A stretch of 64,000 nucleotides of DNA from Fusobacteriota bacterium (GCA_012519615.1 JAAYPW010000115.1:29009-93008), one strand, 5' to 3'; shown: positions 5,962 through 64,000, numbered from the stretch's first letter. Notes: generated by a model not told the origin, from the sequence alone. Numbers and translations are program-made.

Positions 5962-6544
5962 AAAAATAAAATTTAAAAATAAAAAAATCAGAGTAATAAC
6001 AAAATTAGTATTTTTAATAGCATTTATTATTGCTTTTACAATTTTAACAAATAATATTAAAAATTCGTATGTTATATTAAAATATAATCAGAAAGATACA
6101 ATGAGAAATATTCAAAACAATATTAATATTAGAGAATCAAATTTTTATATAACTACGCCTGAAATCCCATATATACCTATAAAAAGCACTGAAGAAAATT
6201 GTGATACGAATAATATAGAAAAAGATTTAAATGAAATTATTATTGAATCAGAAAACGGAACAAAACTAGATGAAAATTTAAATGAAAATATTGCTGAAAA
6301 TGATAAAGAAAAAACTTATTATATACAAATAGCAGTATATAGAGATGAAAGAAATGCTAATGAGTGTATTAAATCATATAAAGAATATAATCCTGAGATT
6401 ATGGTACAAAGTATTAATAATGTAAAATATTATAAAATTATAATTAATAATTTTAATTCAATGAATGATGCTGAAATAAAACGTAATGAGATTATCCAAA
6501 AGAAAAAAATTAAAGAGATTCCTTTAATAAGATTAAAAATTTAA
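5948..6544 (+). CDS. Membrane-anchored SPOR-domain protein
   Basis: N-terminal TM helix (VITKLVFLIAFIIAFTILT). The C-terminal ~75 aa are SPOR-like (YYIQIAVYRDERNANE...YYKIIINNFNSMNDAE). It overlaps the folC end by 14 nt. Confidence 0.6.
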   Translation: MKLNKKIKFKNKKIRVITKLVFLIAFIIAFTILTNNIKNSYVILKYNQKDTMRNIQNNINIRESNFYITTPEIPYIPIKSTEENCDTNNIEKDLNEIIIESENGTKLDENLNENIAENDKEKTYYIQIAVYRDERNANECIKSYKEYNPEIMVQSINNVKYYKIIINNFNSMNDAEIKRNEIIQKKKIKEIPLIRLKI

Positions 6545-6562: not shown

Positions 6563-8512
6563 ATGGAAAAATTAATAACTGTTGAGCAATTAGTTAAAGA
6601 TTTAAAATTACGTGTTCTTTGTGGTAAAGATAATTTGTTAAAAACAAATATAACTGCTGATATTTACAGACCCGGAATAGAATTAACAGGATATTTATTA
6701 GAAAACAATCAAAATTTAGATAAGTATATTCATGTTATTGGTAAAGAGGAGGTAAAATATTTCTATTCATTACCAGAAGATATAAGAAAAGAGAATTTTA
6801 TAAGATATTTTAGTTATTCATTTCCTTGTTTAATTGTTGTAGATAATAAAAATTTAAAAAAAGATTTTATAGAGATTGCAAAAATTGAAAATAAAATATT
6901 ACTTCAAGTGAAGGGAACAATTCAAAGCTTTTTAACAATATTACGTATATATTTGCAAAAGGAACTTGCTCCTGAAATTATTTTAAATAATTTTACACTA
7001 TTAGATATTTTTGGAATTGGTTTAATGATTACAGGAGATGAAAGTGCTAAAATTGGTTCGACAATTGAATTACTTGAAAAAGGACATAGATTTATAACTG
7101 ATGAGTTACTTGTTATAAAAAAAATATCTGATACACAATTAATTGGTGAAAATGGATATCATCAAAATCAAAAAAATAAGAGATATATATTAAAAGTATT
7201 TAATGATGAAAAAATTGATGTTGTTGAGTACTTTGGAATAGGTTCATCCCGTAGAAATAAAGAAATTGATTTAATTATAAAATTTGAAAAATGGGATAGC
7301 AATAAAACATATGATAGACTAGGTGTTGATATAACAAATCAATATTTATTGGGAATAAATATCCCAAAACTTGTAATACCAGTAAGAAAAGGTAGAAATT
7401 TAGGAATTATACTAGAAACTGCTGCAATTAATGAAAGACTAAAAAAAAGTGGAGAAAATTCAGCTCTTACATTTATTAATGAAACTCAAAAAATGATTAC
7501 AATTAATCGTAAAAAAAGAGAAAAAATTGAGGAGGGCAAAATGAGTAATAACAAAATAATAAATGCTAGAACCATTAAAGAAAAATTTGACCTTAAAATT
7601 TTATATGGTGAATCTTTATTAGATGAAAAAAATCTTACAACCCCATATATACACAGACCTTCCTTGGAATTTTCTGGGTTCTATGAAATTTTGGAAGAGG
7701 GTGGGTATAAAAATCTTCAATTAATTGGTCAATCAGAATTAAATTATTTAAATAAATTATTAGACCAAAAAAGAGATAGATATTTAGAACACTATTTTAG
7801 CTATGATTTTCCATTTTTGTTAATAACTGGTGCAAAAAATGTGCCTGATTATATTATAAAAAATGTAAAAGAAAAAAATCATTTATTAATGTGTACCGAA
7901 CAAGATATAAATGAGGTTTCTGAAGAATTAATTGATTATTTTGAAAAAGAATTTGCAGAAGAAATAACTATGCATGGAGTATTAGTTGAAGTATTTGGAT
8001 TCGGAGTTATGCTTATTGGTAAAAGCGGGATAGGTAAAAGTGAAACAGCTTTGGAATTAATTCACAGAGGTCATAGATTAATTGCTGATGATAAGGTGAG
8101 ATTTGTCAAATATAATGATGGTCGAGTAATAGGTAGTGGACATAAATCACTGTACTTTATGGAGATACGAGGCATTGGAATTATTGATATAAAAACTTTA
8201 TATGGATTAGGATCAGTAAGGCATGAAAAACAACTTGATGTGGTAATAGAATTAAAGGAATTAAAAGTTGAAGATTACCTTACAAAAAAAGAGGAACCAA
8301 AAGAGGAAATTGAAATATTGGGAAAAAAATTTCCTAAAATTGAATTATATATATCTTCAGGAAGAAACGCATCATCAATGGTTGAAGTATCTACCATGAA
8401 CTTACGTGCAAAATTCTTAGGATATGAAAATGAAAAAAGAACGGAAAATATGGACAAAAAAGATAATTTCTTTTCTAATATTGGAAATATAATTACAGGG
8501 AGAAAAAAATAA
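6563..8512 (+). CDS. hprK: HPr kinase/phosphorylase, tandem two-module fusion (649 aa)
   Basis: Two HprK-like modules, aa 1-326 and 327-649. The second carries an intact P-loop, GKSGIGKSETALELIHRGHRLIADD, and EIRGIGIIDI. The first has GDESAKIGST at the P-loop position but keeps YDRLG...IPVRKGRNLGIILETAAINERLK. Confidence 0.85.
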   Translation: MEKLITVEQLVKDLKLRVLCGKDNLLKTNITADIYRPGIELTGYLLENNQNLDKYIHVIGKEEVKYFYSLPEDIRKENFIRYFSYSFPCLIVVDNKNLKKDFIEIAKIENKILLQVKGTIQSFLTILRIYLQKELAPEIILNNFTLLDIFGIGLMITGDESAKIGSTIELLEKGHRFITDELLVIKKISDTQLIGENGYHQNQKNKRYILKVFNDEKIDVVEYFGIGSSRRNKEIDLIIKFEKWDSNKTYDRLGVDITNQYLLGINIPKLVIPVRKGRNLGIILETAAINERLKKSGENSALTFINETQKMITINRKKREKIEEGKMSNNKIINARTIKEKFDLKILYGESLLDEKNLTTPYIHRPSLEFSGFYEILEEGGYKNLQLIGQSELNYLNKLLDQKRDRYLEHYFSYDFPFLLITGAKNVPDYIIKNVKEKNHLLMCTEQDINEVSEELIDYFEKEFAEEITMHGVLVEVFGFGVMLIGKSGIGKSETALELIHRGHRLIADDKVRFVKYNDGRVIGSGHKSLYFMEIRGIGIIDIKTLYGLGSVRHEKQLDVVIELKELKVEDYLTKKEEPKEEIEILGKKFPKIELYISSGRNASSMVEVSTMNLRAKFLGYENEKRTENMDKKDNFFSNIGNIITGRKK

Positions 8513-11840: not shown

Positions 11841-11869
11841 TTGACTTATATTTATAAATAGAATATAAT
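11841..11869 (+). promoter_or_regulatory. Putative promoter upstream of the DUF4250 gene
   Basis: TTGACT (11841-11846), 17-nt spacer, TATAAT (11864-11869). Confidence 0.5.
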
Positions 11870-13019: not shown

Positions 13020-13042
13020 ATAAAGTGATAAAGGAGAATAGA

Positions 13043-14618
13043 ATGAAAAAAAAAATTACTAATATTTTATATATTAATAGTATTATTAATTAATGTAGGG
13101 TGTTCTAACAATAATATTAAAGAAAATGAACCTATAAAAGTAGAACCAGCACCGGTAATTGAGGAGAAATATGAGTATAGAAATATCAATGAATATTATG
13201 AAAATGGATATATAAAAGTAGAAAAGGTTTTAAGAGATAATCTATTGCATGGTTTATATACTTCATATTATGATAATGGTCAAATAGAGGAGGAAGGTTT
13301 GTACGAAAATGATAGAAAAACAGGTGAATGGATCACTTATCATTTTAATGGACAAATTGAATCAATATCAATGTACAAAGCAAATAGAAAAATTGGAAAA
13401 TATATATCATATCATGAAAATGGATTTGTAAAAATGAGAGGAATATATGAAAATGGTAAAAAAGATGGACAATTTGTCGAGTATGACGATATGGGCGAAT
13501 TAGCTATAAAGAGTAATTATAAAAATGATAAATTAGACGGGGAATATACATCATATTTCAATAATGGATATATTAAAGAAAAATCTTTTTATATAGACGG
13601 GAAGAAAGATGGCAAATCATTAGTATATTATGATAGTTCGTTAACAAAAATTGAATCTAATTATAAAAATGGAGAATACGATGGTAAAATCACTTCGTAT
13701 CATGCCAATGGTAAAATTAACGAAATTCAAAATTATGAAAATGGGAAAAAACATGGTAAATTTTATAAATATGATGATGATAATATAATTGTTGAAATTC
13801 TTTCATATAAAGATGATTTGTTGCATGGCGAATGTATTTGGTATAAAGATGGGATTGTTCAGAAAAAAATTAATTATAATTCGGGCGTAATAAGCGGTGA
13901 ATACATTACATATATAAATAATAAGTTAAATGAAATTATTACATATGAAAATAATAAGTTAAACGGGAAAAAGACTATTTTTGATGCAAATGGTTCAATT
14001 ACAAGAGAAGTACATTATAAAGATGACCGATTAGACGGTAGAACAATTAATTATTATGAAAACGGCGATGTTAAGGATATTATAACATATAAAAACAATG
14101 TTTTAAGTGGTGATTATATTATATATTATGATAACGGACAAGTTGAAATAATAACACATTATTTAGATGGAATGAAAGATGGTTTAGAAAAATATTTTTA
14201 TTATAGTGGAGTTGTTAAAGAATCAAATAATTATATAAAAGATAAATTGGATGGACTCTCTGCTTCTTTTTATGAAAATGGAATTTATGAATTAAAAATG
14301 AATTACGAAAATGGATTGCTAAACGGAGAATATATATCTTATTACTATGATGGAACAATTAAAGAGAGAAAAAATTATAAAGATGATTTACTAAATGGAA
14401 AAATGGAGATTTTTAATGAAAACGGCAAAATATTAGAGGAAAGAAATTATCTAGATGGTAAATTAAATGGAAATAATTATATATATTCTGTAAATGGAAG
14501 ATTATTAGAGCAAAAACATTATGTAGACAATAAATTAGATGGTGAATGGATAATATACGATAATGATGGGTTTATAGAATCAAGAGTTAGCTTTAGAAAA
14601 GGTGAAAGAGTAGAATAG
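13043..14618 (+). CDS. MORN-repeat (YwqK-like) lipoprotein. The reading frame is broken by an A10 tract directly after the ATG.
   Basis: AAGGAG SD, then ATG at 13043, then A10 (13046-13055). As written the ATG frame stops after 16 codons. The +1 frame reads KKKLLIFYILIVLLLINVGCSNN... (lipobox) and continues without a stop into the listed 13245..14618 ORF, which holds about 19 MORN-type repeats of ~23 aa. Confidence 0.75.
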
Positions 14619-18923: not shown

Positions 18924-18945
18924 AAAGGGATTTTCCCTTTTTGCT
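18924..18945 (+). terminator. Weak hairpin terminator after pnp
   Basis: AAAGGG / CCCTTT stem with a 5-nt loop and a short T-run. Confidence 0.4.
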
Positions 18946-18973: not shown

Positions 18974-20317
18974 ATGAATACTATAATAGTAAGTTTAGGA
19001 TGCCATAAAAATCTAGTTGATACTGAAAACATGTTAGGTATTCTTAAAAAAAATAAAAATATAAATCTTATAACAGATCCTTTAAAAGCAGATATTGCTA
19101 TTATAAATACTTGTGGATTTATAAATGATGCAAAAGAGGAGTCTATTAATGCAATATTGGAAATTGCTATGAATAAAGAAATTGGACAACTTAAAAAACT
19201 TATTGTTACAGGGTGTCTTGCACAACGTTACTCGAAAGAATTAATGGATGAAATCCCAGAAATTGATGCAATATTAGGCACTGGAGAAATTGAAAAAATA
19301 GGTAAAGTTATAGAAGAAATATGTTATAAAGAAAAAATAATCGAGATAGAAAATATGGAATTTATATGTAATGCAAGTACAGAAAGATTAATAACCACGC
19401 CTGCTCATGTAGCTTATATTAAAATAGCAGAAGGGTGTGATATGTCATGTTCATATTGTATTATTCCAAAATTAAGAGGTAAATTTAGAAGTAGATCAAT
19501 CGAAGATATTATAAAAGAGGTAGAAAATCTTGTATCTATAGGTGTTAGAGAGTTTAATATTATAGCACAGGAGACTACTGAATACGGAAGAGACATATAT
19601 GGAAAAAAAATGTTACCTGAATTATTAGAAAAAATATCAAAAGTAGATGGGGTAAAATGGATTAAAAACTTTTATACATATCCAGATGATTTTTCTAACG
19701 AACTAATACAAGTTATAAAAAATAATGATAATATTTGTAAATATATAGATATACCGATACAACATGTAAGCGAATCGATTTTAAAAAAAATGAAAAGAAA
19801 TTCCAATTTTGAAAAAATTGAAAATATATTGTATAATATCAGAAAAGAGATTCCCGAGGCAGTTTTTAGAACTTCGTTAATAGTTGGATTTCCTGGTGAA
19901 ACAGAAGAAGATTTTCAAAAATTATATGATTTCACAAAAAAATTTGAATTTGATTATGTAGGAATATTTAAATATTCTCGTGAGGAAGATACTGCAGCTT
20001 TTGATTTATCAAATCAAGTAGATGAGGAGATAAAAGATGAAAGATGGACTAAACTTATTAATTTGCAAAATGATATTATAAATAGGAAGAACTTAAAATA
20101 TATTGATCATATTTTTGATGTGATAATTGATGGAGTTTCTGAAGAAAGCGAGTTTATGTTAGAGGGGAGAACATCATTTCAAGCATATGATATTGATGGA
20201 AAAGTGCTAATTAATGATGGAACTGGTAAAGTAGGTGAAATTGTTAAAGTAAAAATAGAACAAAATTTTGATTATGATTTGTTAGGAGGTATCGTAGAAA
20301 ATGAATTTACCGAATAA
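18974..20317 (+). CDS. rimO: Ribosomal protein S12 methylthiotransferase (radical SAM, MiaB family)
   Basis: Motifs VSLGCHKNLVDTE, radical SAM CDMSCSYC, and a C-terminal TRAM domain. GAAGGGG SD precedes the ATG at 18974; the listed TTG at 18941 lies inside the pnp terminator. Confidence 0.85.
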   Translation: MNTIIVSLGCHKNLVDTENMLGILKKNKNINLITDPLKADIAIINTCGFINDAKEESINAILEIAMNKEIGQLKKLIVTGCLAQRYSKELMDEIPEIDAILGTGEIEKIGKVIEEICYKEKIIEIENMEFICNASTERLITTPAHVAYIKIAEGCDMSCSYCIIPKLRGKFRSRSIEDIIKEVENLVSIGVREFNIIAQETTEYGRDIYGKKMLPELLEKISKVDGVKWIKNFYTYPDDFSNELIQVIKNNDNICKYIDIPIQHVSESILKKMKRNSNFEKIENILYNIRKEIPEAVFRTSLIVGFPGETEEDFQKLYDFTKKFEFDYVGIFKYSREEDTAAFDLSNQVDEEIKDERWTKLINLQNDIINRKNLKYIDHIFDVIIDGVSEESEFMLEGRTSFQAYDIDGKVLINDGTGKVGEIVKVKIEQNFDYDLLGGIVENEFTE

Positions 20318-20853: not shown

Positions 20854-21666
20854 ATGAAACTTGGATTTATAGGTGCCGGTAAAATGGCAGAAGCATATAT
20901 TAGTGCTTTGGAAAAAGATAATGAAATAGTTTATATAGAGAAAAATATTGAAAGAGATGAATATATAAAATCTAAATATAGAGTAGAATCCCAAAAAAAT
21001 CTATCTTATTTAATTAAGGATTCCGATTTTATAATACTTGCAGTTAAACCTCAAAATATTGAGGAAGTTTTAACTGAAATATCAAAATTGGATATAAAAA
21101 TGGAAGAATTATCTAACAAAATATTTATATCAATAGCTGCTGGAATTAAAATTAAAACAATAGAAAAATATTTAAATAAGAATAATATTAAAATTGTTAG
21201 AGTTATGCCAAATACACCTGCAGCAATAAAAAAAGGGATATCTGCATATACTTTAAATGATAATATTAAATCAAGTGAAGAAATTTTTGATATTGAAACT
21301 ATTTTAAAGGCAACAGGTGAAATTGTTTATGTAAATGAAAAAGATTTGGATATTGTAACTGCAATATCAGGAAGTGGACCTGCATATGTATTTGTTATGT
21401 TAAATGCAATTGCTGATGCTGGTGTGAAAAACGGACTAACTAAAGATTTAGCTCTGAAATTTGCAGTGGAAACATTTATTGGAGCATCATATTTAGTAAA
21501 ACAAAGTGGTGAACATCCAGAAAAATTAAAAGACAGTGTTACATCTCCTAGCGGAACTACTGCAGCAGGCTTAGCTATGTTAGAAAAAAATAATATTAGA
21601 ACAGTATTAATTGAAACTATAGATGCTGCTTATAATAAATCAATAGAGCTTGGTAAAGGGGAGTGA
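20854..21666 (+). CDS. proC: Pyrroline-5-carboxylate reductase
   Basis: Motifs MKLGFIGAGKMAEA, VRVMPNTPA and SPSGTTAAGL. An alternative start is at 20836. Confidence 0.9.
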   Translation: MKLGFIGAGKMAEAYISALEKDNEIVYIEKNIERDEYIKSKYRVESQKNLSYLIKDSDFIILAVKPQNIEEVLTEISKLDIKMEELSNKIFISIAAGIKIKTIEKYLNKNNIKIVRVMPNTPAAIKKGISAYTLNDNIKSSEEIFDIETILKATGEIVYVNEKDLDIVTAISGSGPAYVFVMLNAIADAGVKNGLTKDLALKFAVETFIGASYLVKQSGEHPEKLKDSVTSPSGTTAAGLAMLEKNNIRTVLIETIDAAYNKSIELGKGE

Positions 21667-21673
21667 TTAGAGA

Positions 21674-21967
21674 ATGCGTATATTTTTTCTACTTTTAGAG
21701 AGAAGCTTAAGAATAATTGAAACACTTCTTATAATTAGAATAATATTAAGCTGGGTACTACCAGGAAACTTCTTTTATAGTATGTCAAGAGGTGGATTTT
21801 CAGAGCTTTTAAGTGATTTAGTTAAAGCGATATATAAAGTTACTGACCCGATTTTAAAACCTTTTAGGATTATAATTCCATTAGGTGGAGCAATGTTAGA
21901 TATCGGACCTATTGTTGTATTTTTTATAATAAGAATACTAAGAGGTATATTAGCTTTTCTGGCTTAA
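21674..21967 (+). CDS. yggT: YggT-family small membrane protein
   Basis: 97 aa with two hydrophobic segments and a YggT-like LLIIRIILSWV motif. It lies next to proC, a pairing common in other bacteria. Confidence 0.65.
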   Translation: MRIFFLLLERSLRIIETLLIIRIILSWVLPGNFFYSMSRGGFSELLSDLVKAIYKVTDPILKPFRIIIPLGGAMLDIGPIVVFFIIRILRGILAFLA

Positions 21968-22425: not shown

Positions 22426-23367
22426 ATGGAAAATAAAGAGATGAGAATATTAGAAAAGTATAAGTTTTTTTTTAAGGATTTAACTGCATGTAAAATAATG
22501 AACAGGATGATAATATATTTAAAAGAAGATAATACAATTGCTGAAGCAAAATCTATTATGAAAAATGAGAAAATATCTGGAATCCCAATAGTTGATGATG
22601 CCAAAAATCTTATAAATATTATCTCTACAGAGGATATTATTTGTGCGCTGGAAGATGGAATTATTGACTGCAAAATAAAAGTATTGGGAAGAAAAAATCT
22701 TATCTCTTTTAGAGATGATGATAATTTTGGTGAAATACTAGAACAACATGCAAAATATGCATATGGTAGATATCCAGTAGTAAATCAGGATAATAAGCTA
22801 GTTGGTATTATTACAAAGCATGATCTATTATATGCTGTGATATCAAAATTATCAGTATTGTATCTTCACGATGAAAGAAGAAAAGAGATTTTAGATTCTC
22901 CATTATCTATATACATAAAAAACACACATAAATATAATAAACCAAAATTTGTATTTAACATAAATAATAATGATGTGAATAGTTCTGGGGAAGGATCGGC
23001 GCTTTTAAAAAATTATTTATTAGAAAAAAATATTGATAAAACATTAGTTCGAAAAATAAGTATTTCAACCTATGAAGCGGAAGTAAATGTTGTAATTCAT
23101 GGTGGCGGAGTAGGAAAAATTATTGCAAATATAACTGATGACTCTATAATTGTATATGTTGAAGATTTAGGACCAGGGATAGAAAACATAGATAAAGCTT
23201 TAGAAGCAGGATTTTCTACAGCACCGGAATATATACGTAGTTTAGGATTTGGTGCAGGTATGGGATTACCAAATATTAAGAGATTTGCTGATAAACTGGT
23301 AATTACTTCAGAAAAAAATAATGGTACTAAAGTAGAAATGGTATTTTGGGTAAATGAAGTAAAATAA
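22426..23367 (+). CDS. CBS-pair + HATPase_c (anti-sigma-factor/Ser kinase-like ATPase) protein
   Basis: Two N-terminal CBS motifs (ISGIPIVDD..., RYPVVNQDNKLVGIITKHDL). The C-terminal GHKL ATPase has N, G1 and G2 boxes (VNVVIHG, EDLGPGI, GFGAGMGLPNIKR). Confidence 0.7.
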   Translation: MENKEMRILEKYKFFFKDLTACKIMNRMIIYLKEDNTIAEAKSIMKNEKISGIPIVDDAKNLINIISTEDIICALEDGIIDCKIKVLGRKNLISFRDDDNFGEILEQHAKYAYGRYPVVNQDNKLVGIITKHDLLYAVISKLSVLYLHDERRKEILDSPLSIYIKNTHKYNKPKFVFNINNNDVNSSGEGSALLKNYLLEKNIDKTLVRKISISTYEAEVNVVIHGGGVGKIIANITDDSIIVYVEDLGPGIENIDKALEAGFSTAPEYIRSLGFGAGMGLPNIKRFADKLVITSEKNNGTKVEMVFWVNEVK

Positions 23368-26735: not shown

Positions 26736-28220
26736 TTGATTAGTTTAGAAAAATATTTAAAAACTGGGTTAATTGTAAGCATTATTTTGATAAATATAGG
26801 TTGTAAAAAAATACCAAAAAATAATGAAGTAACACAAATTAAAATAGAAAACACTGTATCGGAAGTTATTATTGAAAAAACTGAAAATATTACTACTAAA
26901 TCTGATGAAGTTGTCTATAAAGAACTTTTAGATGATAAAATTTCTCATAATAAGAATGTGTTAAATGAGATTGATTATTATAATTATGATGAAAATTTTT
27001 TCATTGAAAATATAATTGAACCAAATAAAATCATTATGAATAAATCCGAAATTATAAATTTTAATAAAAAAAATATTTTAGATAATGATTTTATGTATAA
27101 TATATCAGAATTTTTCGATTTTCTTAAAGGGGAAGAGATTAATAAAAGGATATTAACTGTAAGTACACCATCAAAATACAATAGATATAAAAAAAATGGA
27201 TTAATAATGTCAGAAGATGATTATAAAATATTACATGAAAATCTTAATTTAAAAACTAATATTAATGATGATTATCCTATAAAATTTGGTATTTGTGTAA
27301 ATAGAACTATTATGAAATCATACCCTACAGATATACAAATATCAGTTTTACCAGGCGATATAGCTTATGATAGATTTACTGAATCGGCAATATATCCTAA
27401 TGAATCAATGGCAATTTTAAATGAAAGTACTGATAATAATTGGTATTTTGTTCAAGTCTTTCATTCTGCTGGATGGGTAAAAAAAGAAGATATTGGTTTG
27501 TGTAAAAAAGATATAATTATAGATTCTGAAAAAAATGAAAATTTTGCTATTGTAACAGATAAAATGATTAACATTGTTTATTATGATAACAATTTAGGTG
27601 AAATTAATAATATTAGTTATGATATGGGTGTAAAAATAAAAATAAAAGATGTAGATAATAAGAGTGACTATATTTTAGGATATTTACCATTTAAAGATGA
27701 GAAAAATAATCTTATTTATAAAAAATTAAATTTAGAGAGAAAAAGTCTGAATATAGGTTATTTACCATATACAAAAGAAAATCTCATTAAGCAATCATTT
27801 AAGTTTTTAGGAGAATATTATGGTTGGGGGGGATTAAATAATTCAAGAGATTGTTCTGCTTTTTTACAAGATATATATAGAACTTTTGGGATACAAATAC
27901 CGCGAAATTCATCCCAACAGGGAAAATATTCCATAGGTAAAACACTTAATTTTATTGAACAAGATGATTTTAATAGTAAATATACAATGTTGAAAGATAT
28001 GGAAATGGGTGCAGGAATATATATACCTGGACATGTTATGATGTATTTAGGGGAATATAATGGGAAACACTATGTAATACATACATTTACTGGATATTAT
28101 AGAGATAATAAATATGTTGATGTGATGAAAGGTGCAATAACTACACTTGATATAAAATCAAAAGATGGAAAAACATATTTAGAAAAAGTGTATGCTGTGA
28201 AAGAATTTATATATAAATAA
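26736..28220 (+). CDS. NlpC/P60 cysteine peptidase lipoprotein with SH3b-like domains (YkfC-like)
   Basis: Lipobox LINIGC. The catalytic region reads GWGGLNNSRDCSAFLQDIYRTFGIQIPRNSSQQ ... GHVMMYLG ... VIHTF. TTG start after AAAGGGGA. Confidence 0.8.
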   Translation: MISLEKYLKTGLIVSIILINIGCKKIPKNNEVTQIKIENTVSEVIIEKTENITTKSDEVVYKELLDDKISHNKNVLNEIDYYNYDENFFIENIIEPNKIIMNKSEIINFNKKNILDNDFMYNISEFFDFLKGEEINKRILTVSTPSKYNRYKKNGLIMSEDDYKILHENLNLKTNINDDYPIKFGICVNRTIMKSYPTDIQISVLPGDIAYDRFTESAIYPNESMAILNESTDNNWYFVQVFHSAGWVKKEDIGLCKKDIIIDSEKNENFAIVTDKMINIVYYDNNLGEINNISYDMGVKIKIKDVDNKSDYILGYLPFKDEKNNLIYKKLNLERKSLNIGYLPYTKENLIKQSFKFLGEYYGWGGLNNSRDCSAFLQDIYRTFGIQIPRNSSQQGKYSIGKTLNFIEQDDFNSKYTMLKDMEMGAGIYIPGHVMMYLGEYNGKHYVIHTFTGYYRDNKYVDVMKGAITTLDIKSKDGKTYLEKVYAVKEFIYK

Positions 28221-28236: not shown

Positions 28237-29724
28237 ATGAAAAAAAAATTTTTATTAGTTTTATTATTACTTGCAATTTCATTAACTTTTGGTGCTTGTA
28301 GAAAGGCAAAGGTTGTTGAAGAACCAGTTATAACTGAAGCACCAGTTGAAGTGGAAAAACCTGTGTATGTTGAAGAAAAAAATATTGTTGAACCAACACC
28401 AGTTATAATTGAATTACCAAAAGAGGAACTAAAACCAGTATTTATAGAACCAGAACCAGTTATTATTGAGTCGGAACCTATAAAAACATTAACAAAAAAT
28501 GATGTAGCATACTGGTTAGAAAAATATGATGATGATGAGTTAAATCAAATTTTAATGACTCAAGATGATATTAAACTATTTAACGATTTAAATATTGAAA
28601 ATTCAATTCCTTTAGTCGATTTAAAAAAAGAAAAAACAGTCTTAACAAAATCAGAACTTACTAAATTAATAAAATCGGTAAGTACACCATCAAAAAGTCA
28701 AAGATATGATGAAAACGGTGCAATTGTAGATAATAATTTTTATAATAAATTAAATGAAAATTTAGATTTAGATTCAATTTCTAATTCTAATGAAATTCAA
28801 TACGCAATTTGTACAAATAGAACAATATTAAGAACTTATCCTACAGATGCAAAAATAACAAAAGAGCCTTTTCAATTTGAATTTGATAGATTTGCAGAAA
28901 CTGCTGTATATGCTGCCGAACCTTTATTAGTTTATAAAGAGAGTAAAGATAAAAATTGGTATTTTGTTAGAATGTATAATTATATAGGATGGATAAATGC
29001 AAATGATATTGCCTTAACTTCAAGAGATAATTTATTTGAATATGTTGAAAAAGCACCGTTTATTGTTGTTAATGCAGATAAAATTTATTTAGAAGGTAAC
29101 GAATTTTCAATGGGAACAAGACTTCCAATTTCTAAAATAAATTATGAAAATGAAGATAAAACAGTGATCATTCCAGTAAGAAAATCTGATGGAACTGCTG
29201 AATTTAAAAATGTATCGGTTAATTCAAGCTTGGATGTATCTTTAGGATATTTATCATACAATAGAAAAAACATCTTAATACAAGCATTTAAATTATTAGA
29301 TGATCCTTATGGATGGGGTGGATTAAATGGCGGAAGAGATTGTTCAGCATTTATAATTGATATATATAGAACATTTGGATTAGATTTACCGCGTAATTCT
29401 TATGAACAAGGGAAACTTTCTCTAGGAAAACAATATCCTATGCCTTATGATATGAATATTGAAAGTAGAGAAGAACTATTTAGAACATTAAAACCAGGAA
29501 CACCTTTATATATTTTAGGACATGTAATGATCTATCTTGGTGAAGATAATGGCGACTTTTTTATAATACATAATTATACGGGAAATTATACAAGAGATAA
29601 TGGAAATTTAGAATATAATAGAGTAATGTCCACAACTATTAGCCCGCTATCAATGAGATTATTTAATGGAAAAACATATTTAGAAAGAATATATACAGGA
29701 AAAGATTTTATTTTAAATAAATAA
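28237..29724 (+). CDS. NlpC/P60 cysteine peptidase lipoprotein, paralogue of the preceding gene, with a Pro/Glu-rich linker
   Basis: MKKKFLLVLLLLAISLTFGAC lipobox. An EP/PV-rich linker spans aa 25-85. It shares GWGGLNGGRDCSAFIIDIYRTFGLDLPRNSYEQ and GHVMIYLG. The ATG is followed by an in-frame A9 tract. Confidence 0.8.
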   Translation: MKKKFLLVLLLLAISLTFGACRKAKVVEEPVITEAPVEVEKPVYVEEKNIVEPTPVIIELPKEELKPVFIEPEPVIIESEPIKTLTKNDVAYWLEKYDDDELNQILMTQDDIKLFNDLNIENSIPLVDLKKEKTVLTKSELTKLIKSVSTPSKSQRYDENGAIVDNNFYNKLNENLDLDSISNSNEIQYAICTNRTILRTYPTDAKITKEPFQFEFDRFAETAVYAAEPLLVYKESKDKNWYFVRMYNYIGWINANDIALTSRDNLFEYVEKAPFIVVNADKIYLEGNEFSMGTRLPISKINYENEDKTVIIPVRKSDGTAEFKNVSVNSSLDVSLGYLSYNRKNILIQAFKLLDDPYGWGGLNGGRDCSAFIIDIYRTFGLDLPRNSYEQGKLSLGKQYPMPYDMNIESREELFRTLKPGTPLYILGHVMIYLGEDNGDFFIIHNYTGNYTRDNGNLEYNRVMSTTISPLSMRLFNGKTYLERIYTGKDFILNK

Positions 29725-33353: not shown

Positions 33354-33740
33354 ATGAGAAAAATTAATTGGTATATTGTTATTTATGTATTAAGTTTTTT
33401 AATTTTATCCTCATTATTTATCATAACTTCAATTTATTTTTCAAAAATTGATGAATCTTATACAAATGTTAGTTCTTCTTTGAAAAATACGGAGGAGAAT
33501 TATGTTAGTTACTATGAAATTTTATCGTTAAAAGGAGAAATACAGGAAAATATTGAACAAATATTGGCATTGGGATATATTAAAGATAAAAATCTTGCTA
33601 ATATAATCTATAATAATTTTTATAGTTCAAATAAAATTATAAAAGAAAAGATTGATAAAATAGAAAAAAATATAATATTAAGAGATTTTTTTAAAGAAAT
33701 TGAAGTTTTAATAGAAAAAATTATTGATTTAAAAAAATAG
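33354..33740 (+). CDS. Sensor histidine kinase, N-terminal segment (TM1 + start of the extracytoplasmic domain). It ends at an in-frame TAG.
   Basis: GAAGGAGG SD precedes the ATG at 33354. TM helix WYIVIYVLSFLILSSLFIITSIYF. It is in the same frame as 33867..35870, with no other stop between them. Confidence 0.6.
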   Translation: MRKINWYIVIYVLSFLILSSLFIITSIYFSKIDESYTNVSSSLKNTEENYVSYYEILSLKGEIQENIEQILALGYIKDKNLANIIYNNFYSSNKIIKEKIDKIEKNIILRDFFKEIEVLIEKIIDLKK

Positions 33741-42515: not shown

Positions 42516-42585
42516 AAAAAATAAAGAAATATTAAAAAAACTTTGATTTTACTAAATAGATAGGAAAATTATCCGATAATTGTAT

Positions 42586-42655
42586 ATAATATAATATAAT
42601 ATAATATAATATAATATAATATAATATAATATAATATAATATAATATAATATAAT
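42586..42655. repeat. Perfect pentanucleotide microsatellite (ATAAT)x14
   Basis: Counted directly: 70 nt, 14 uninterrupted units. The array creates 13 overlapping TATAAT hexamers. It ends 10 nt before the AGGGAG SD of pseB. Confidence 0.95.
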
Positions 42656-51456: not shown

Positions 51457-52719
51457 ATGAAATTAAATAAATTTAAATTTGATGAAATTGCAAACTTAAA
51501 GTTAAAAGATTTAACAGAGCTTGCACAAAATGTTGGGATGGATAAAATTTATAAATATAAAAAAGATGAATTAATAATGAAGTTAATTGAAAAAAAAGGT
51601 GAAGATGAAAAAATATTAATTGGTTGTGGAGAATTAGACATTTTACCAGACGGTTATGGATTTCTTAGACAAAGTAATGTAGTACAAGATATCTATCTTT
51701 CTGCATCACAAATAAAAAAATTTGCATTAAGAATAGGGGACATAATTATTGGTGAGATTAGAGAACCTGTTGGAGAAGAAAAAAATTATGCTATATTAAA
51801 AATAATCTTGGTTAATGGAGATTTATTAGAGAAAGCTAAATCAAGACCTAAATTTGATGACTTATTGCCATCATATCCAACAGAAAAAATTCATTTAGAA
51901 ACTAATTTAAAAGAGAATTTATCAGGTAGGATGATAGATCTTATTGCACCAATTGGTAAAGGACAAAGAGGTTTAATTGTAGCACCACCTAAAGCAGGTA
52001 AAACTATCCTAATTAGTCAAATGGCAAATAGCATTATTGAAAATTATCCTGATTTAAAGCTATGGATTTTACTTATTGATGAAAGACCAGAAGAAGTTAC
52101 AGATATAAAAAATAATGTAAAAGATGCTGAAGTTTTCGCATCAACATTCGATGAAGAACCCCATAATCATCTGAAAGTAACTGAGATGGTTTTAGAAAAA
52201 GCAAAACGTCTTGTGGAAGAGGGGAAAGATATATTTATATTAATGGATAGTCTTACTCGACTTGCAAGATCATATAATATAATTGTACCATCAAGTGGTA
52301 AACTTATATCAGGTGGGATTGATCCGGCGGCATTATACTTTCCAAAGAAGTTTTTTGGTGCTGCTAGAAATATTAAAAATGGAGGCAGTCTAACAATTAT
52401 TGCAACAGCTTTAGTTGATACAGGGAGTAAAATGGATGATGTAATATACGAAGAATTTAAAGGTACAGGAAATATGGAGATACATTTAGATAGACATTTA
52501 GCAGAGTTACGGATATTTCCTGCGATAGATGTAAAAAGATCTGGTACACGAAGAGAAGAATTGCTTATTTCAGAAAAAGAATTAGAAGCAATTTGGAATT
52601 TTAGAAACTTAATTGCTAATGATACAACAGCAGATTCTTCAAAAAAATTTATAGAACTTATTAAAAATACAAAGAATAACGATGATTTGCTAAATCATTT
52701 TTCAAAGGGTGTGAGATAA
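51457..52719 (+). CDS. rho: Transcription termination factor Rho
   Basis: 420 aa with an N-terminal Rho_N/CSD (GFLR), P-loop APPKAGKT, LLIDERPEEV and SGTRREELL. Confidence 0.97.
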   Translation: MKLNKFKFDEIANLKLKDLTELAQNVGMDKIYKYKKDELIMKLIEKKGEDEKILIGCGELDILPDGYGFLRQSNVVQDIYLSASQIKKFALRIGDIIIGEIREPVGEEKNYAILKIILVNGDLLEKAKSRPKFDDLLPSYPTEKIHLETNLKENLSGRMIDLIAPIGKGQRGLIVAPPKAGKTILISQMANSIIENYPDLKLWILLIDERPEEVTDIKNNVKDAEVFASTFDEEPHNHLKVTEMVLEKAKRLVEEGKDIFILMDSLTRLARSYNIIVPSSGKLISGGIDPAALYFPKKFFGAARNIKNGGSLTIIATALVDTGSKMDDVIYEEFKGTGNMEIHLDRHLAELRIFPAIDVKRSGTRREELLISEKELEAIWNFRNLIANDTTADSSKKFIELIKNTKNNDDLLNHFSKGVR

Positions 52720-60815: not shown

Positions 60816-60888
60816 TTAAAAAAACTAAAAAAAAATAAAAAAAAAGCAATAACTAAATATATAGTTAATATATGTGAGGTGAAATATT

Positions 60889-61483: not shown

Positions 61484-64000
61484 TTGAAAAAAATTATTTT
61501 TTATTTACACTAGTTTTTCTTATTCTAACAGGTTGTTTTAATAGTAATAGTGAAAACAATATTAAACTTGAAAAAGGTCTATCAGCAATAAAAGGAAAAA
61601 ACGAAATTGAGATACTTACAAATAAAAAACATTTAGCTACACAAATTGAGATTAAAGGTGATATTGAAAAAGATGATATTTTTGTGTCTAATGAATTTTT
61701 ATCAATTATTGAAAAAAATAATGATGTAATTACTATTAATGTATCAAACTTAAATAGCATTGATAACAATATTAAATTTAAACTTTTAAGAGATAACTTT
61801 GATAATATTAATATTAAAATTGTAAGAATTGTTACATTAGAGGATGTATTTGTTGAGGATAATATCAAAAAAAATCTGAACAATATCTTATTAGGAGATT
61901 ATGATGAAAATGGTATTGTTGATTTAAATGACTTTTCTATATTTACAGAAAATTTTAATAAAAAAAATAGTATATATGATATTGCACCATCATCAAAAGG
62001 TACAAATAAATGGGGAGAAATTTATTGTAATTTAGCCGGTGATGGATTTATAGGTATAGAGGATTTAGTTGTATTTGCACATAACTTTGGAAAAATAAAA
62101 CCTATAGATGATTTAAATATTGAAGTAAAAGATATTAATATTGTTATTGATAAACAAACTCTAAAAATAGGGGATACATTAAATGTATATGGAAATGTTA
62201 TTCCAGAAAATGCAGCAAATAAAAAAATAATTTGGACAACAAATAATAACAATATTAGTATTACAAATATAAATGATACAACAATTAGTATAACTGCTAA
62301 TAATGTAGGTACAACTGTCTTAACTGCAACAAGTGTAAATGGAAAATTAAAAACTATTAATATTATTATAGCTGAAGAGGAAACAAAACAAGATTTAATA
62401 ATTTATATCGAATCAACAACTGCACCGAGATTATATGCGTGGACAGGAAGTGGAGCAAGTGAAGTTAAATTGCTTGGTGCGTGGCCAGGAAAAGATTTAA
62501 CAGAACAAGAAGGAAAATTTTATTATTATAATTTTGGTAGTGAGATTAAATCACTTAATTATATACATTTCATTGGTGGACAATCTGCTGATTTAACTAC
62601 ATCTGAAAGTATATGGATTACATCGGATAAAAAAATACATAAAGCAAACCCATATGAACCATCAAAACCAATTATAACGGTTGGATTAGTTGATGGAAAA
62701 TATAACGGTGATACTTCTATATCAGTGGAAATTACTGCAATTAATAATACAGTTGATACTGAGAATATTTTGTTTAATGGAAAAAAAATTCCATATAGTA
62801 ATACAGAAGCTAGTTTTAAAATTTCTGATTATATAAATGACGGAGACTCTGGATTACTTGAAATTACTGCTAGTAATTCACAAGGAACTGTTACAAAAGT
62901 TGTAAGTATTGAAAGAGATGATACAATCTCATCTTTAAAATTGTACTTAGAAAAAAATCAAGTTGTTTATGGTTGGACTGTTGTAAATGGTGAAGTAATT
63001 ACAGTAAATGGTGGTTGGCCTGGAAAACAATTAGATAAAACAATTGTAACAAATGGGAAAACTTGGTATGTACTGGATTTTGGATTTGTAGACTCTGGAA
63101 GTTATATATTAAATGGTCAAGGAGGTACAGACCAGTCAATTAGCCAAACTACTTGGGTTGATGCAACTGGTGGAAAATATAATGTCGATCCATATGAACC
63201 AACAAAACCAGAAATAAGTATTACACCGGGTTCTGGTACATATTCAGATAAAAATGGTAAAAGAAAAATTGTAATTTCTGTTACAGTTAGAAACGCAACA
63301 ATAGATTCAAAATCTGCAACAATTACAGTTGATGGAACTTCAAAACCGATAACTTTAACAGGTGAAAAAACCGAATTAATATTTTCAGAAACTATTCCTA
63401 ATAATAGTACTGCAACAATTAAGGTTACAGCATCAAATTCATTAGGTACATCTGAAAAAACTGTTGAAATCAAAAGGGATGATGAGTATACTGTGCCGCG
63501 TGGTGAATTTACTTGGGATAATGCACTTATATACTTCGTATTAACAGATCGATTTTATAATGGAAATCCAAGTAATGATAATTCTTATGGTAGAAAAAAT
63601 AAAATTGGTGCAGATCCATTAGATATTGCAACATTCCATGGTGGAGACGTTGCAGGATTAACAGAAAAAATTGAAGAGGGATATTTTGATGAATTAGGTG
63701 TAAACGCAATATGGGTAACAGCATTGTATGAACAAATACATGGATGGGTTGGTGGAGGAAGTGGAGATTTCCCACATTATGCTTATCATGGTTATTATGG
63801 ACTAGATTGGACTGCAGCAGATAAAAATATGGGTACAGTTGATGAAATAAGAAAATTTGTTGACACAGCTCATGAACATGGAATAAGAGTAATAATGGAT
63901 ATAGTTGTTAATCATGTTGGATATAATTCAGCAATGGACATGGTAGATTACGGATTTGCATCTTATGATAAAGCTGTAATTACAGATCGTGATTGGATGC
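61484..64000 (+). CDS. Modular secreted alpha-amylase lipoprotein (dockerin-like + Big_2-like + 2x CBM25/26-like + GH13 catalytic domain). The start is frameshifted by an A7 tract and the 3' end lies outside the window.
   Basis: AAGGGGGA SD, then TTG at 61484, then A7 (61487-61493). The TTG frame stops after 9 codons. The adjacent frame, open from 61483 to 64000 with no stop (translated by hand), reads ...NYFLFTLVFLILTGCFNSN (lipobox) ... GDYDENGIVDLNDF ... LYAWTGSG..GAWPGKDL ... FVLTDRFYNGNPSNDN, GVNAIWVT, RVIMDIVVNHVG. Confidence 0.8.

What the first reader, a model, noticed from the sequence alone, without database searches (positions are those of the whole stretch)
13031..13110. A10 tract directly after the start codon frameshifts a MORN-repeat lipoprotein gene (candidate phase-variable switch)
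Seen in sequence:
- AAGGAG SD, the ATG at 13043, then ten A residues (13046-13055).
- As written, the ATG frame gives MKKKITNILYINSIIN and then a stop.
- With nine A residues it would read MKKKLLIFYILIVLLLINVGCSNN... This is a textbook lipoprotein signal that continues without a stop for about 520 codons through the MORN/YwqK-like repeat array to 14618.
- The listed ORF (TTG at 13245) has no SD and lacks the signal peptide.
- The neighbouring lipoprotein gene at 28237 carries an in-frame A9 at the same position. Other A7-A8 runs inside essential genes (for example rimO, 19603-19610) are also in frame, which argues against pervasive homopolymer miscalling.

Established knowledge: homopolymeric tracts at the 5' end of surface lipoprotein genes mediate ON/OFF switching, with classic examples in Mycoplasma.

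Inference: this copy is in the OFF state.
Basis: partly seen in the sequence, partly recalled or inferred. Interest (0 to 1): 0.6.

Follow-up and report, generated by a model that had tools for sequence, protein, structure and literature searches.

The report
Poly-A frameshift silences a lipoprotein gene
Ten A's right after the start codon put a surface-lipoprotein gene out of frame in this biogas-reactor bacterium, while a 99.9%-identical sister lineage has nine A's and an intact gene: a real, inherited on/off difference of a well-known kind, with no sign of rapid switching.

Summary
AAGGAG (13031-36), ATG (13043) and A10 (13046-55) are there. The ATG frame stops after 16 codons. With A9 the gene encodes a 524-aa MORN_2-repeat protein with a lipoprotein-type signal peptide.

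The A10 is not an assembly error. Near-identical contigs from other biogas-fermenter metagenomes carry A10 in 5 samples and A9, with the intact gene, in 8. None of 31 other A/T runs of at least 8 bases varies, including the A9 at 28240.

Rapid switching is not supported. Tract length follows clonal lineage exactly (markers at 8100 and 46813), and no haplotype within either lineage has switched. The A10 lineage also carries a second signal-peptide frameshift: T7 to T6 in a 1233-aa amylase lipoprotein gene at 61484. The two frameshifts always occur together. In the OFF lineage the MORN gene also collects more SNPs than expected.

A9 is simply the default coding of Met-Lys-Lys-Lys here, because AAA makes up 90% of Lys codons.

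Best reading: a replication-slippage null allele at a mutational hot spot, inherited stably and revertible in principle. It resembles Listeria inlA A7/A6 more than Mycoplasma vaa. It is a new member of a known kind, of modest interest.

The parts
13031..13036 (+). Shine-Dalgarno AAGGAG, 6 nt upstream of the start codon
   Evidence: Read directly. Identical in all related contigs.
13043..13045 (+). ATG start codon of the MORN-repeat lipoprotein gene
   Evidence: Gene callers start the 524-aa product here in the A9 contigs L001, L002, L004, L007, L101 and L103-L105.
13046..13055 (+). A10 homopolymer (codons 2-4 plus one extra A): the frameshifting tract. It is A9 in the sister lineage.
   Evidence: It is the only run of 10 or more in the window.
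13043..13093 (+). Truncated product of the OFF allele: 16 codons (MKKKITNILYINSIIN) plus the TAA stop
   Evidence: Translation.
13047..14618 (+). Open frame of the gene body. It has no ATG, GTG or TTG before 13245. It encodes the h-region and lipobox (Cys codon 13101-13103) and about 20 MORN_2 repeats of 24-aa period.
   Evidence: No stop codon in this frame in any of the 13 samples.
13245..14618 (+). Remnant ORF (TTG start, 457 aa, no signal peptide, no SD) that gene callers report in A10 contigs
   Evidence: The gene is called as 457 aa in L003, L005, L009, L102 and L107-L109.
61484..61513 (+). Second frameshift of the same type in the same lineage: the start of a CBM26/alpha-amylase lipoprotein gene. 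TTG is at 61484 and the T6 run at 61497-61502. The window reads MKKIIFYLH and stops at TAG 61511-13. With T7 it reads MKKIIFLFTLVFLILTGC... (1233 aa).
   Evidence: T7 is found in 7 lineage-I samples. T6 is found in the window and SRR5185872.
28240..28248 (+). Control tract: an in-frame A9 directly after the ATG of an NlpC/P60 lipoprotein gene, invariant in all assemblies of both lineages

Best explanation
The organism is an uncultured Fusobacteriaceae-like bacterium from biogas fermenters with 25% G+C. In such a genome a signal peptide that starts Met-Lys-Lys-Lys is almost automatically encoded as ATG+A9.

In the ancestor of the lineage this window belongs to, replication slippage added one A, giving A10. 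Translation from the only usable start then ends after 16 codons, so the 524-aa exported MORN_2-repeat lipoprotein is not made. That protein is probably a surface adhesin-like protein.

The null allele is inherited stably. It is fixed in one clonal lineage, and the sister lineage keeps A9 and an intact gene. The same lineage has also lost a surface amylase lipoprotein through a T7-to-T6 slip in its signal-peptide region.

The tract remains a hot spot, so reversion is possible, and rare in-frame mRNAs from transcriptional slippage are possible. Even so, this behaves as a slow, lineage-level ON/OFF polymorphism or an incipient pseudogene, not as a fast dedicated switch.

Shown here: the tract, the frameshift, both alleles in nature, the lineage linkage and the second frameshift. 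Inferred: the slippage origin, the loss of the protein, its surface or adhesin role and the potential for reversion.
For: 1. Anatomy: SD, ATG and A10, a stop after 16 codons, and A9 restoring a 524-aa MORN_2 protein with a signal peptide.
2. A10 is reproduced in 5 independent samples by several assemblers (MEGAHIT k127 and k141, JGI, Logan). A9 is found in 8 samples. The contigs are more than 99.9% identical.
3. None of 31 other A/T runs of at least 8 bases between 8.7 and 39.7 kb varies between lineages, including A9 at 28240 and T9 at 22465 and 36313.
4. Tract state is perfectly congruent with SNPs at 8100 and 46813. For 8100 the split is 5 A10/G against 5 A9/C, with a hand-computed two-sided Fisher p of about 0.008.
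5. It is also congruent with the T6/T7 frameshift at 61497: 5 samples ON/ON, 2 OFF/OFF, none mixed.
6. Each lineage contains several SNP haplotypes, all with the same tract length.
7. Within the OFF lineage, 3 of 12 SNP sites fall in this gene (2 nonsynonymous), p=0.015 after weighting for coverage. In the ON lineage it is 1 of 61.
8. AAA is 90% of Lys codons, so MKKK is A9 with p=0.73 without any selection for mutability.
9. Precedent: the Listeria monocytogenes inlA 5' poly(A), with lineage-restricted A7/A6 alleles, an 8-aa truncated product and reversion at about 5.5e-7 (PMC2831843).
Against: - Consensus contigs cannot show minority variants, so frequent switching inside populations is not excluded.
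- In sample JGI 3300002168, contigs end inside both tracts (L006 starts at 13048, L115 ends at 61502). This means length heterogeneity within that sample, from either co-occurring lineages or in-situ slippage.
- The ORF is still intact over 1.57 kb in every OFF haplotype. That fits a reversible state as well as a young pseudogene.
- The SNP-enrichment test rests on 3 sites.
- Samples from one project are not independent.
Confidence: 0.6

Rival explanations
1. This is a true contingency locus. The A9/A10 tract switches reversibly and frequently by slipped-strand mispairing, and populations use it to turn a surface lipoprotein ON and OFF, as in Mycoplasma hominis vaa. The T6/T7 tract of the amylase lipoprotein would be part of the same set of switchable genes.
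For: - Both in-frame and out-of-frame lengths exist in nature in near-identical genomes.
- The ORF is intact in all OFF copies.
- The tract lies at the 5' end of a surface-protein gene.
- Contigs of JGI 3300002168 break inside both tracts, and contigs of JGI 3300002378, SRR14812357 and SRR25904989 end 10-25 nt from one of them.
- Elsewhere in these data, contig ends coincide with within-sample polymorphisms: 14455/14468 flank the SNPs at 14456/14467, and 33737 lies next to the SNP at 33738.
- 2 of the 3 lineage-distinguishing homopolymer indels hit the first 25 codons of lipoprotein genes, which hold only 5 of the window's 430 A/T runs of at least 6 bases.
Against: - There is no homoplasy. Tract length is fully congruent with lineage SNPs in 13 samples, and the two tracts are always ON/ON or OFF/OFF. 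Independent fast switches should give mixed combinations.
- A T6/T7 run is short for a fast switch.
- A9 is the default encoding of MKKK here.
- The identical A9 start tract at 28240 never varies.
- The contig breaks can be explained by the two lineages co-occurring in one sample.
- A library search found no report of homopolymer phase variation in Fusobacterium.
Confidence: 0.24
2. The gene still works in the A10 state. RNA polymerase slippage on the A run (-1 or +2 nt), or ribosome sliding on AAA AAA AAA A, restores the frame in a fraction of products. A10 would then be a low-expression allele rather than OFF.
For: - Transcriptional insertions rise exponentially with A/T run length up to 9-11 nt in E. 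coli and Buchnera (PMC5574713).
- Bacterial slippage on runs of 9 A or T yields mRNAs with up to 6 extra nt, and ribosome sliding on A runs has been reported (PMC5009743).
- A12 would read MKKKKLLIF..., which is in frame.
- The ORF is intact in all OFF copies.
Against: - Single-nucleotide insertions dominate. From A10 these give A11, which is still out of frame. Deletions in runs are rarer.
- That study found no case in Buchnera of a transcription error restoring a frame.
- The hint of excess SNPs in the OFF lineage argues for relaxed constraint.
- No expression data exist.
Confidence: 0.1
3. Sequencing or assembly artefact: the genome really has A9, and the tenth A is a homopolymer miscall.
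For: - Homopolymer errors do occur in this data set. The 3.3x-coverage assembly ERZ2647912 has more than 10 private deletions in A5-A8 runs that split essential genes such as rimO, rho and the HPr kinase gene.
- JGI 3300002392 has a private A insertion at 7520.
Against: - A10 recurs identically in 5 other samples from at least 4 projects and 3 assembly pipelines.
- It is always linked to the same SNP markers.
- Those errors are private and scattered. This difference is shared and lineage-specific.
- The A9 at 28240 is never miscalled.
Confidence: 0.03
4. Programmed recoding: the out-of-frame arrangement is the designed state, with a 16-aa leader peptide and regulated frameshifting into the lipoprotein frame.
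For: A slippery A run lies at the junction of two frames. A-run recoding sites such as dnaX and IS elements are known (PMC5009743).
Against: - The out-of-frame arrangement is not conserved. The sister lineage is simply in frame with A9.
- No stimulatory element is evident.
- No orthologue with this arrangement was found.
Confidence: 0.02

Closest known systems
Listeria monocytogenes inlA 5' poly(A) tract (A7 in frame, A6 frameshifted, 8-aa product)
   Same: - A poly(A) run in the first codons of a gene for an exported surface protein.
- A +/-1 slip gives a very short truncated peptide.
- The alleles are distributed by phylogenetic lineage.
- The tract is a hot spot roughly 1000-fold above the point-mutation rate rather than a fast switch (PMC2831843).
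   Different: - The tract here is longer (A9/A10), and the null allele is an insertion rather than a deletion.
- The organism is an environmental Fusobacteriaceae-like anaerobe, not a pathogen.
- No reversion frequency has been measured.
- inlA frameshifts had at least two independent origins. Here a single origin suffices.
Mycoplasma hominis vaa adhesin poly-A switch (A8 ON; A7 or A9 OFF; 1e-3 to 1e-4)
   Same: A poly-A tract at the 5' end of a surface lipoprotein or adhesin gene in an AT-rich genome, with frame-dependent ON/OFF states (PMC524362).
   Different: - vaa switching is shown to be reversible and frequent within clonal populations.
- Here the state is lineage-fixed, with no recurrent change seen in 13 samples.
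- Whether this organism has mismatch repair was not examined here, so the tract's mutation rate is unknown (mycoplasmas lack it, from my own knowledge).
Poly(A) frameshifts in AT-rich endosymbionts (Buchnera, Blochmannia) with proposed rescue by transcriptional slippage
   Same: A genome of about 25% G+C, in which long A runs in coding sequence cause frameshifted genes. Slippage by RNA polymerase could give some in-frame mRNA (PMC5574713, PMC5009743).
   Different: - The bacterium is free-living, and long runs are strongly depleted in it (1 A10 against 17 expected).
- The frameshift is polymorphic between lineages, not ancient and conserved.
- Rescue is untested.
Fusobacterium MORN2-domain surface proteins (Pfam PF07661)
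   Same: - Tandem 22-24-aa MORN_2 repeats behind a signal peptide, in a member of the Fusobacteriaceae neighbourhood.
- Function unknown, predicted to be adhesion.
- 87% of 697 Fusobacterium MORN2 genes have signal peptides (PMC4222103; Pfam hit).
   Different: - No orthologue above about 32% identity was found among 5.8 billion proteins, and none in GTDB species genomes.
- The gene is not syntenic in the nearest Fusobacterium and Cetobacterium MAGs.
- The habitat is a biogas reactor, not a host.

Membership tests
Simple-sequence-repeat phase-variable (contingency) locus | A slippage-prone repeat inside the reading frame or promoter of the gene | tested here: met
   A10 at 13046-13055, directly after the ATG.
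Simple-sequence-repeat phase-variable (contingency) locus | Repeat-length variants that put the gene in and out of frame exist among close relatives, with the ORF otherwise intact | tested here: met
   A9 in 8 samples, A10 in 5 samples plus the window, in contigs more than 99.9% identical. No other stop codon in any copy.
Simple-sequence-repeat phase-variable (contingency) locus | Switching is recurrent and reversible: homoplasy of tract length on a clonal background | tested here: not met
   Tract length is fully congruent with the SNP markers at 8100 and 46813 and with the T6/T7 frameshift at 61497. Several haplotypes per lineage all share one state, so one event suffices. The resolution is limited to consensus sequences of 13 samples.
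Simple-sequence-repeat phase-variable (contingency) locus | High switching frequency within a clonal population (about 1e-2 to 1e-5 per generation) | not testable with these tools
   No reads or cultures are available. The only indirect hints are contigs ending inside the tracts in JGI 3300002168.
Pfam MORN_2 (PF07661) repeat proteins | A score above the Pfam gathering threshold, with tandem 22-23-aa repeats | tested here: met
   144.6 bits against a cutoff of 29.6, E=2.2e-44. About 20 repeat cores at 12- or 24-aa spacing.
Bacterial lipoprotein (SPase II substrate) | A basic n-region, a hydrophobic h-region and a lipobox [LVI][ASTVI][GAS]C within about 35 residues | tested here: inconclusive
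   MKKK, then LLIFYILIVLLI, then N-V-G-C. Positions -1 and -2 fit, but Asn at -3 fails a strict PROSITE-type pattern. The same I-N-I-G-C occurs in the gene at 26736. No SignalP or LipoP was available.
YwqK-family antitoxin (the source name given to many MORN_2 hits) | A cytoplasmic protein encoded next to a YwqJ-type toxin | tested here: not met
   The restored protein has an export signal. Its neighbours are a HisJ-family histidinol phosphatase and an ABC-F ATPase.
NCBIfam NF033566, LIC20035 family adhesin | A score at or above the curated cutoff of 250 bits | tested here: not met
   111 bits, E=5.9e-32. This is repeat-level resemblance only.
Programmed frameshift or transcriptional-slippage gene | The out-of-frame arrangement is conserved among relatives | tested here: not met
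   The sister lineage is in frame with A9.

The most novel reading that the evidence does not exclude
An environmental, non-pathogenic Fusobacteriaceae-like anaerobe uses homopolymers inside signal-peptide coding regions (A9/A10 in the MORN lipoprotein, T7/T6 in the amylase lipoprotein) as a reversible multi-gene switch set. With it, the bacterium sheds or restores surface lipoproteins, for example under phage or substrate pressure in biogas reactors. The breaks of JGI 3300002168 contigs inside both tracts would then reflect in-situ switching.
Probability: 0.15. Interest if true: 0.5.

Novelty: new member of a known kind. Interest (0 to 1): 0.3.

Why it matters
- For annotation: the 457-aa ORF at 13245 is a remnant. 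The gene should be recorded as a frameshifted lipoprotein gene whose intact allele (A9) exists in nature. The amylase gene at 61484 needs the same treatment.
- For population biology: two near-clonal lineages of one uncultured biogas-reactor bacterium differ mainly by homopolymer slips that remove two exported lipoproteins. This is a compact example of surface-protein loss by hot-spot mutation in an engineered ecosystem.
- As a lead: public read sets can directly show whether such tracts switch in situ.
- For mechanism: it does not reveal a new one.

Tried and rejected
- A homologue search with the restored protein returned only repeat-level hits of 22-38% identity and no orthologue, so tract conservation in diverged orthologues could not be examined.
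- An exact look-up of the ON and OFF products in the protein collection found nothing. A look-up of the window's own 457-aa ORF also found nothing, because the window carries a private SNP at 14467.
- A scan of the GTDB genomes with the restored protein found no relative. The second scan, with the ABC-F neighbour, identified the nearest relatives as Fusobacterium and Cetobacterium MAGs at 75-79% aa identity. None has a MORN gene at the syntenic position.
- Two scans of the JGI metagenome contigs with DNA patterns around the tract returned nothing, so no wider census of tract lengths was possible.
- The promoter and terminator scan was uninformative in this AT-rich DNA (49 promoter-like sites against 36 expected). 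No terminator separates the HisJ-family gene from the MORN gene. The best promoter-like site (11/12) lies at 11841-11869, upstream of the DUF4250 gene.
- Contig ends near the tracts were considered as evidence of within-sample heterogeneity. Only JGI 3300002168 is clear. Other ends lie 10-25 nt away, and contig ends also cluster at non-polymorphic places such as 35896, so this was kept as a hint only.
- A mutator (mismatch-repair-deficient) origin for lineage II was considered. The SNP spectrum within that lineage is 8 transitions to 4 transversions (my count), which is not decisive, and no mutS or mutL locus is in the window.
- No structure prediction was run. It would not bear on the switch question.

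Full report
**1. The observation**

The window has 25.1% G+C. At 13031-13036 there is AAGGAG. Six bases later comes ATG (13043-13045), followed by exactly ten A (13046-13055).

- Read from the ATG, the frame gives MKKKITNILYINSIIN and stops at TAA 13091-13093.
- Deleting one A gives an uninterrupted 524-codon frame to 14618, beginning MKKKLLIFYILIVLLINVGCSNN.
- The restored protein matches Pfam MORN_2 (PF07661) at 144.6 bits against a cutoff of 29.6. It has about 20 repeat cores at 12- or 24-residue spacing.
- In the frame of the gene body there is no ATG, GTG or TTG between the tract and the TTG at 13245. The 457-aa ORF that a mechanical ORF list reports is therefore a remnant without an export signal.
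The gene at 28237 starts ATG+A9 in frame, and rimO is intact.

Two qualifications apply.

- The lipobox is I-N-V-G-C. Asn at -3 fails a strict PROSITE-type pattern, although the neighbouring lipoprotein gene at 26736 has I-N-I-G-C.
- A10 is not 'more than chance' by count. It occurs once against 17.3 +/- 6.9 in shuffles. Long runs are avoided in this genome, and this is the single exception.

**2. Source organism**

The neighbouring ABC-F protein is found, with identical sequence, on contigs from many biogas-fermenter metagenome assemblies (ENA, JGI, Logan). Its closest relatives among GTDB species genomes are Fusobacterium and Cetobacterium MAGs at 75-79% amino-acid identity.

The organism is therefore an uncultured Fusobacteriaceae-like bacterium. 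The MORN gene has no close orthologue anywhere searched. It is also absent from the syntenic position in the nearest MAGs.

**3. The tract in related genomes**

Six exact-protein look-ups brought in 59 loci (L001-L010 and L091-L139) that are 99.3-100% identical to the window.

| Tract length | Samples | Gene call |
|---|---|---|
| A9 | ERZ2647912, ERZ2647956, ERZ12298803, ERZ12298798, SRR25904988, SRR25904989, SRR14812365, SRR14812357 | 524 aa from the ATG |
| A10 | the window, ERZ27280794, SRR3184649, SRR3184675, JGI 3300002392, SRR5185872 | 457-aa remnant |

The A10 contigs come from three assembly pipelines and at least four projects, so the tenth A is not a one-off miscall.

The control is good. 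Between 8.7 and 39.7 kb there are 31 other A/T runs of at least 8 bases, including A9 at 28240 and T9 at 22465 and 36313. None differs between lineages.

Homopolymer errors do exist in these data. The 3.3x-coverage assembly ERZ2647912 has more than ten private deletions in A5-A8 runs that break rimO, rho and the HPr kinase gene. Those errors are private and scattered, unlike the shared A9/A10 difference.

**4. Is it switching?**

A full comparison over the 64 kb shows two clonal lineages.

| Feature | Lineage II | Lineage I |
|---|---|---|
| Members | the window and the other A10 samples | the A9 samples |
| Tract at 13046 | A10 | A9 |
| SNP at 8100 | G | C |
| SNP at 46813 | G | A |
| T run at 61497-61502 | T6 | T7 |
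| SNP block at 63462-63651 | one version | the other version |

- Tract length is perfectly congruent with these markers. For 8100 the split is 5 against 5 samples, with a hand-computed two-sided Fisher p of about 0.008.
- Each lineage contains several internal SNP haplotypes. In lineage II the variable sites include 13558, 14456, 14467, 22860/22872, 31205/31221 and 33738. None of these haplotypes has a different tract length.
- One insertion event explains everything.

The only hint of heterogeneity within a sample is JGI 3300002168. One of its contigs begins inside the A tract (L006 starts AAAAAAAATTACT at 13048) and another ends at the last T of the T run (L115 ends at 61502). Elsewhere in these data, contig ends sit next to sites that are polymorphic within a sample, such as 14455/14468 and 33737. 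That sample also mixes markers of both lineages (T6 at 18937 together with G at 46813). Co-occurrence of the two lineages explains the breaks as well as in-situ slippage does.

**5. A second case that changes the reading**

The gene after 61413 is a 1233-aa CBM26/alpha-amylase gene in lineage I.

- In lineage I it starts TTG AAA AAA ATT ATT TTT TTA..., which reads MKKIIFLFTLVFLILTGC with a canonical lipobox.
- In the window and in SRR5185872 the T7 is T6. The frame then reads MKKIIFYLH and stops at 61511-61513, and gene callers report a 1166-aa product without a signal peptide.

The OFF lineage has therefore lost two exported lipoproteins by one-base slips in the signal-peptide region.

- Among samples where both tracts are known, 5 are ON/ON, 2 are OFF/OFF and none is mixed. 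This is the pattern of clonal inheritance, not of independent fast switches.
- Only 5 of the window's 430 A/T runs of at least 6 bases lie in the first 25 codons of its four lipoprotein genes, yet 2 of the 3 lineage-distinguishing homopolymer indels are there.
- That points to these surface proteins being dispensable, or their loss being favoured, in lineage II.

**6. Signs of decay**

- Within lineage II, 3 of 12 SNP sites fall in the 1.6-kb MORN gene: F to Y at 13558, a synonymous change at 14456, and S/N at 14467, which is private to the window. After weighting for sample coverage, p=0.015.
- Within lineage I, 1 of 61 SNP sites falls in the gene.
- The numbers are small, but the direction is that of relaxed constraint on a silent gene.

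**7. Why the tract exists**

AAA makes up 90% of Lys codons in the window (1707 against 187 AAG). A Met-Lys-Lys-Lys n-region is therefore ATG+A9 with p of about 0.73 from codon usage alone. No selection for mutability is needed.

**8. Mechanism and leakiness**

The frameshift acts at translation. The tract is inside the ORF, not in a promoter spacer.

- From published work, transcriptional insertions on A/T runs rise exponentially with run length up to 9-11 nt (PMC5574713).
- Runs of 9 A or T give mRNAs with up to 6 extra nucleotides, and ribosomes can slide on A runs (PMC5009743).
- An A10 template could therefore give a minority of in-frame A12 or A9 messages.
- Single insertions dominate, however, and from A10 they give A11, which is still out of frame. 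That study also saw no frame restoration in Buchnera. A small leak is possible but untested.

**9. Comparison with known systems**

- The closest match is the 5' poly(A) of Listeria monocytogenes inlA. It has lineage-restricted A7/A6 alleles, an 8-aa truncated product, and reversion at about 5.5e-7, roughly 1000-fold above the point-mutation rate (PMC2831843).
- The classic fast switch, Mycoplasma hominis vaa (A8 ON, A7 or A9 OFF, 1e-3 to 1e-4; PMC524362), has the same anatomy. Its defining property, recurrent switching on a clonal background, was tested here at consensus level and not met.
- The protein belongs to the MORN_2 repeat proteins that are expanded in Fusobacterium. 87% of those carry signal peptides and their function is unknown (PMC4222103).
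- It resembles the Leptospira LIC20035 adhesin family only below threshold: 111 bits against a cutoff of 250.
- The 'YwqK antitoxin' label attached to many database hits does not fit an exported protein flanked by a HisJ-family phosphatase and an ABC-F ATPase.
- A search of the held literature found no report of homopolymer phase variation in Fusobacterium.

**10. Verdict**

The window carries the OFF allele of a genuine natural ON/OFF polymorphism at a slippage hot spot.

The evidence favours a stably inherited, lineage-fixed null allele that is revertible in principle (0.6) over a fast phase-variable switch (about 0.24). Leaky expression (0.1), artefact (0.03) and programmed recoding (0.02) are minor alternatives.

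It is a new member of a known kind, with interest of 0.3. Read-level tract-length counts phased to the nearby SNPs in the listed public runs would settle the question.

Noticed in passing
window 61484-61513 (T run at 61497-61502); L111-L119: A second signal-peptide frameshift. A 1233-aa CBM26/alpha-amylase lipoprotein gene (TTG at 61484, lipobox LTGC) is out of frame in the window and in SRR5185872 (T6) and intact in 7 other samples (T7). It is always linked to the A10/A9 state.
   Followed up: yes
window 33738 (stop TAG at 33738-33740); L091-L098: A nonsense SNP (GAG to TAG) splits an 838-aa HisKA sensor kinase into 133 + 667 aa in the window and in ERZ27280794 only. Contigs L097 and L098 end exactly at 33737, which suggests both alleles coexist in those samples.
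   Followed up: partly
window 18933-18937 (pnp-rimO spacer): A T5/T6 length polymorphism in the intergenic spacer. It is T6 in lineage I and also in JGI 3300002168, which otherwise carries lineage-II markers. That means recombination, recurrent slippage or a mixed consensus.
   Followed up: partly
whole window: Long homopolymers are strongly depleted. A10 occurs once against 17.3 +/- 6.9 expected from dinucleotide shuffles. There are only five 9-mers among 430 A/T runs of at least 6 bases.
   Followed up: yes
L001/L091/L120/L134 (ERZ2647912, coverage 3.3x); window 7626-7834, 20112, 39765, 45634, 45969, 51590-51780: This low-coverage SPAdes assembly has many private 1-3-nt deletions in A5-A8 runs (and one G5 run) that break rimO, rho, the HPr kinase gene, an MCP gene and others. 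These are almost certainly assembly errors, and they are a useful negative control for the shared A9/A10 difference.
   Followed up: partly
window 63462-63651 and 21549-21954 (L094): Dense SNP patches. Sixteen SNPs in 190 bp of the amylase gene separate the two lineages. About 75 SNPs or indels in 400 bp around yggT are private to SRR25904988. These look like imported recombination tracts.
   Followed up: no
window 42584-42598: A 15-bp deletion (three ATATA/TATAA units) in an AT repeat upstream of the nucleotide-sugar/NeuB gene cluster, seen in ERZ2647912 and ERZ2647956 only.
   Followed up: no
window 60827-60845: Two A9 runs separated by a single T, about 45 nt upstream of a pilin-like gene (60889, MKNGFTVLELV...). 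They do not vary in any of the assemblies that cover them.
   Followed up: partly
window 13092-13103 and 26736-26810: Two putative lipoproteins share an unusual lipobox with Asn at -3 (I-N-V-G-C and I-N-I-G-C). This may be a lineage-specific lipobox variant.
   Followed up: no
window 6225-6275 (L131): A 51-bp in-frame deletion in the SPOR-domain gene in ERZ2647956 (181 aa against 198 aa). dnaN is also split into two ORFs in the same contig.
   Followed up: no
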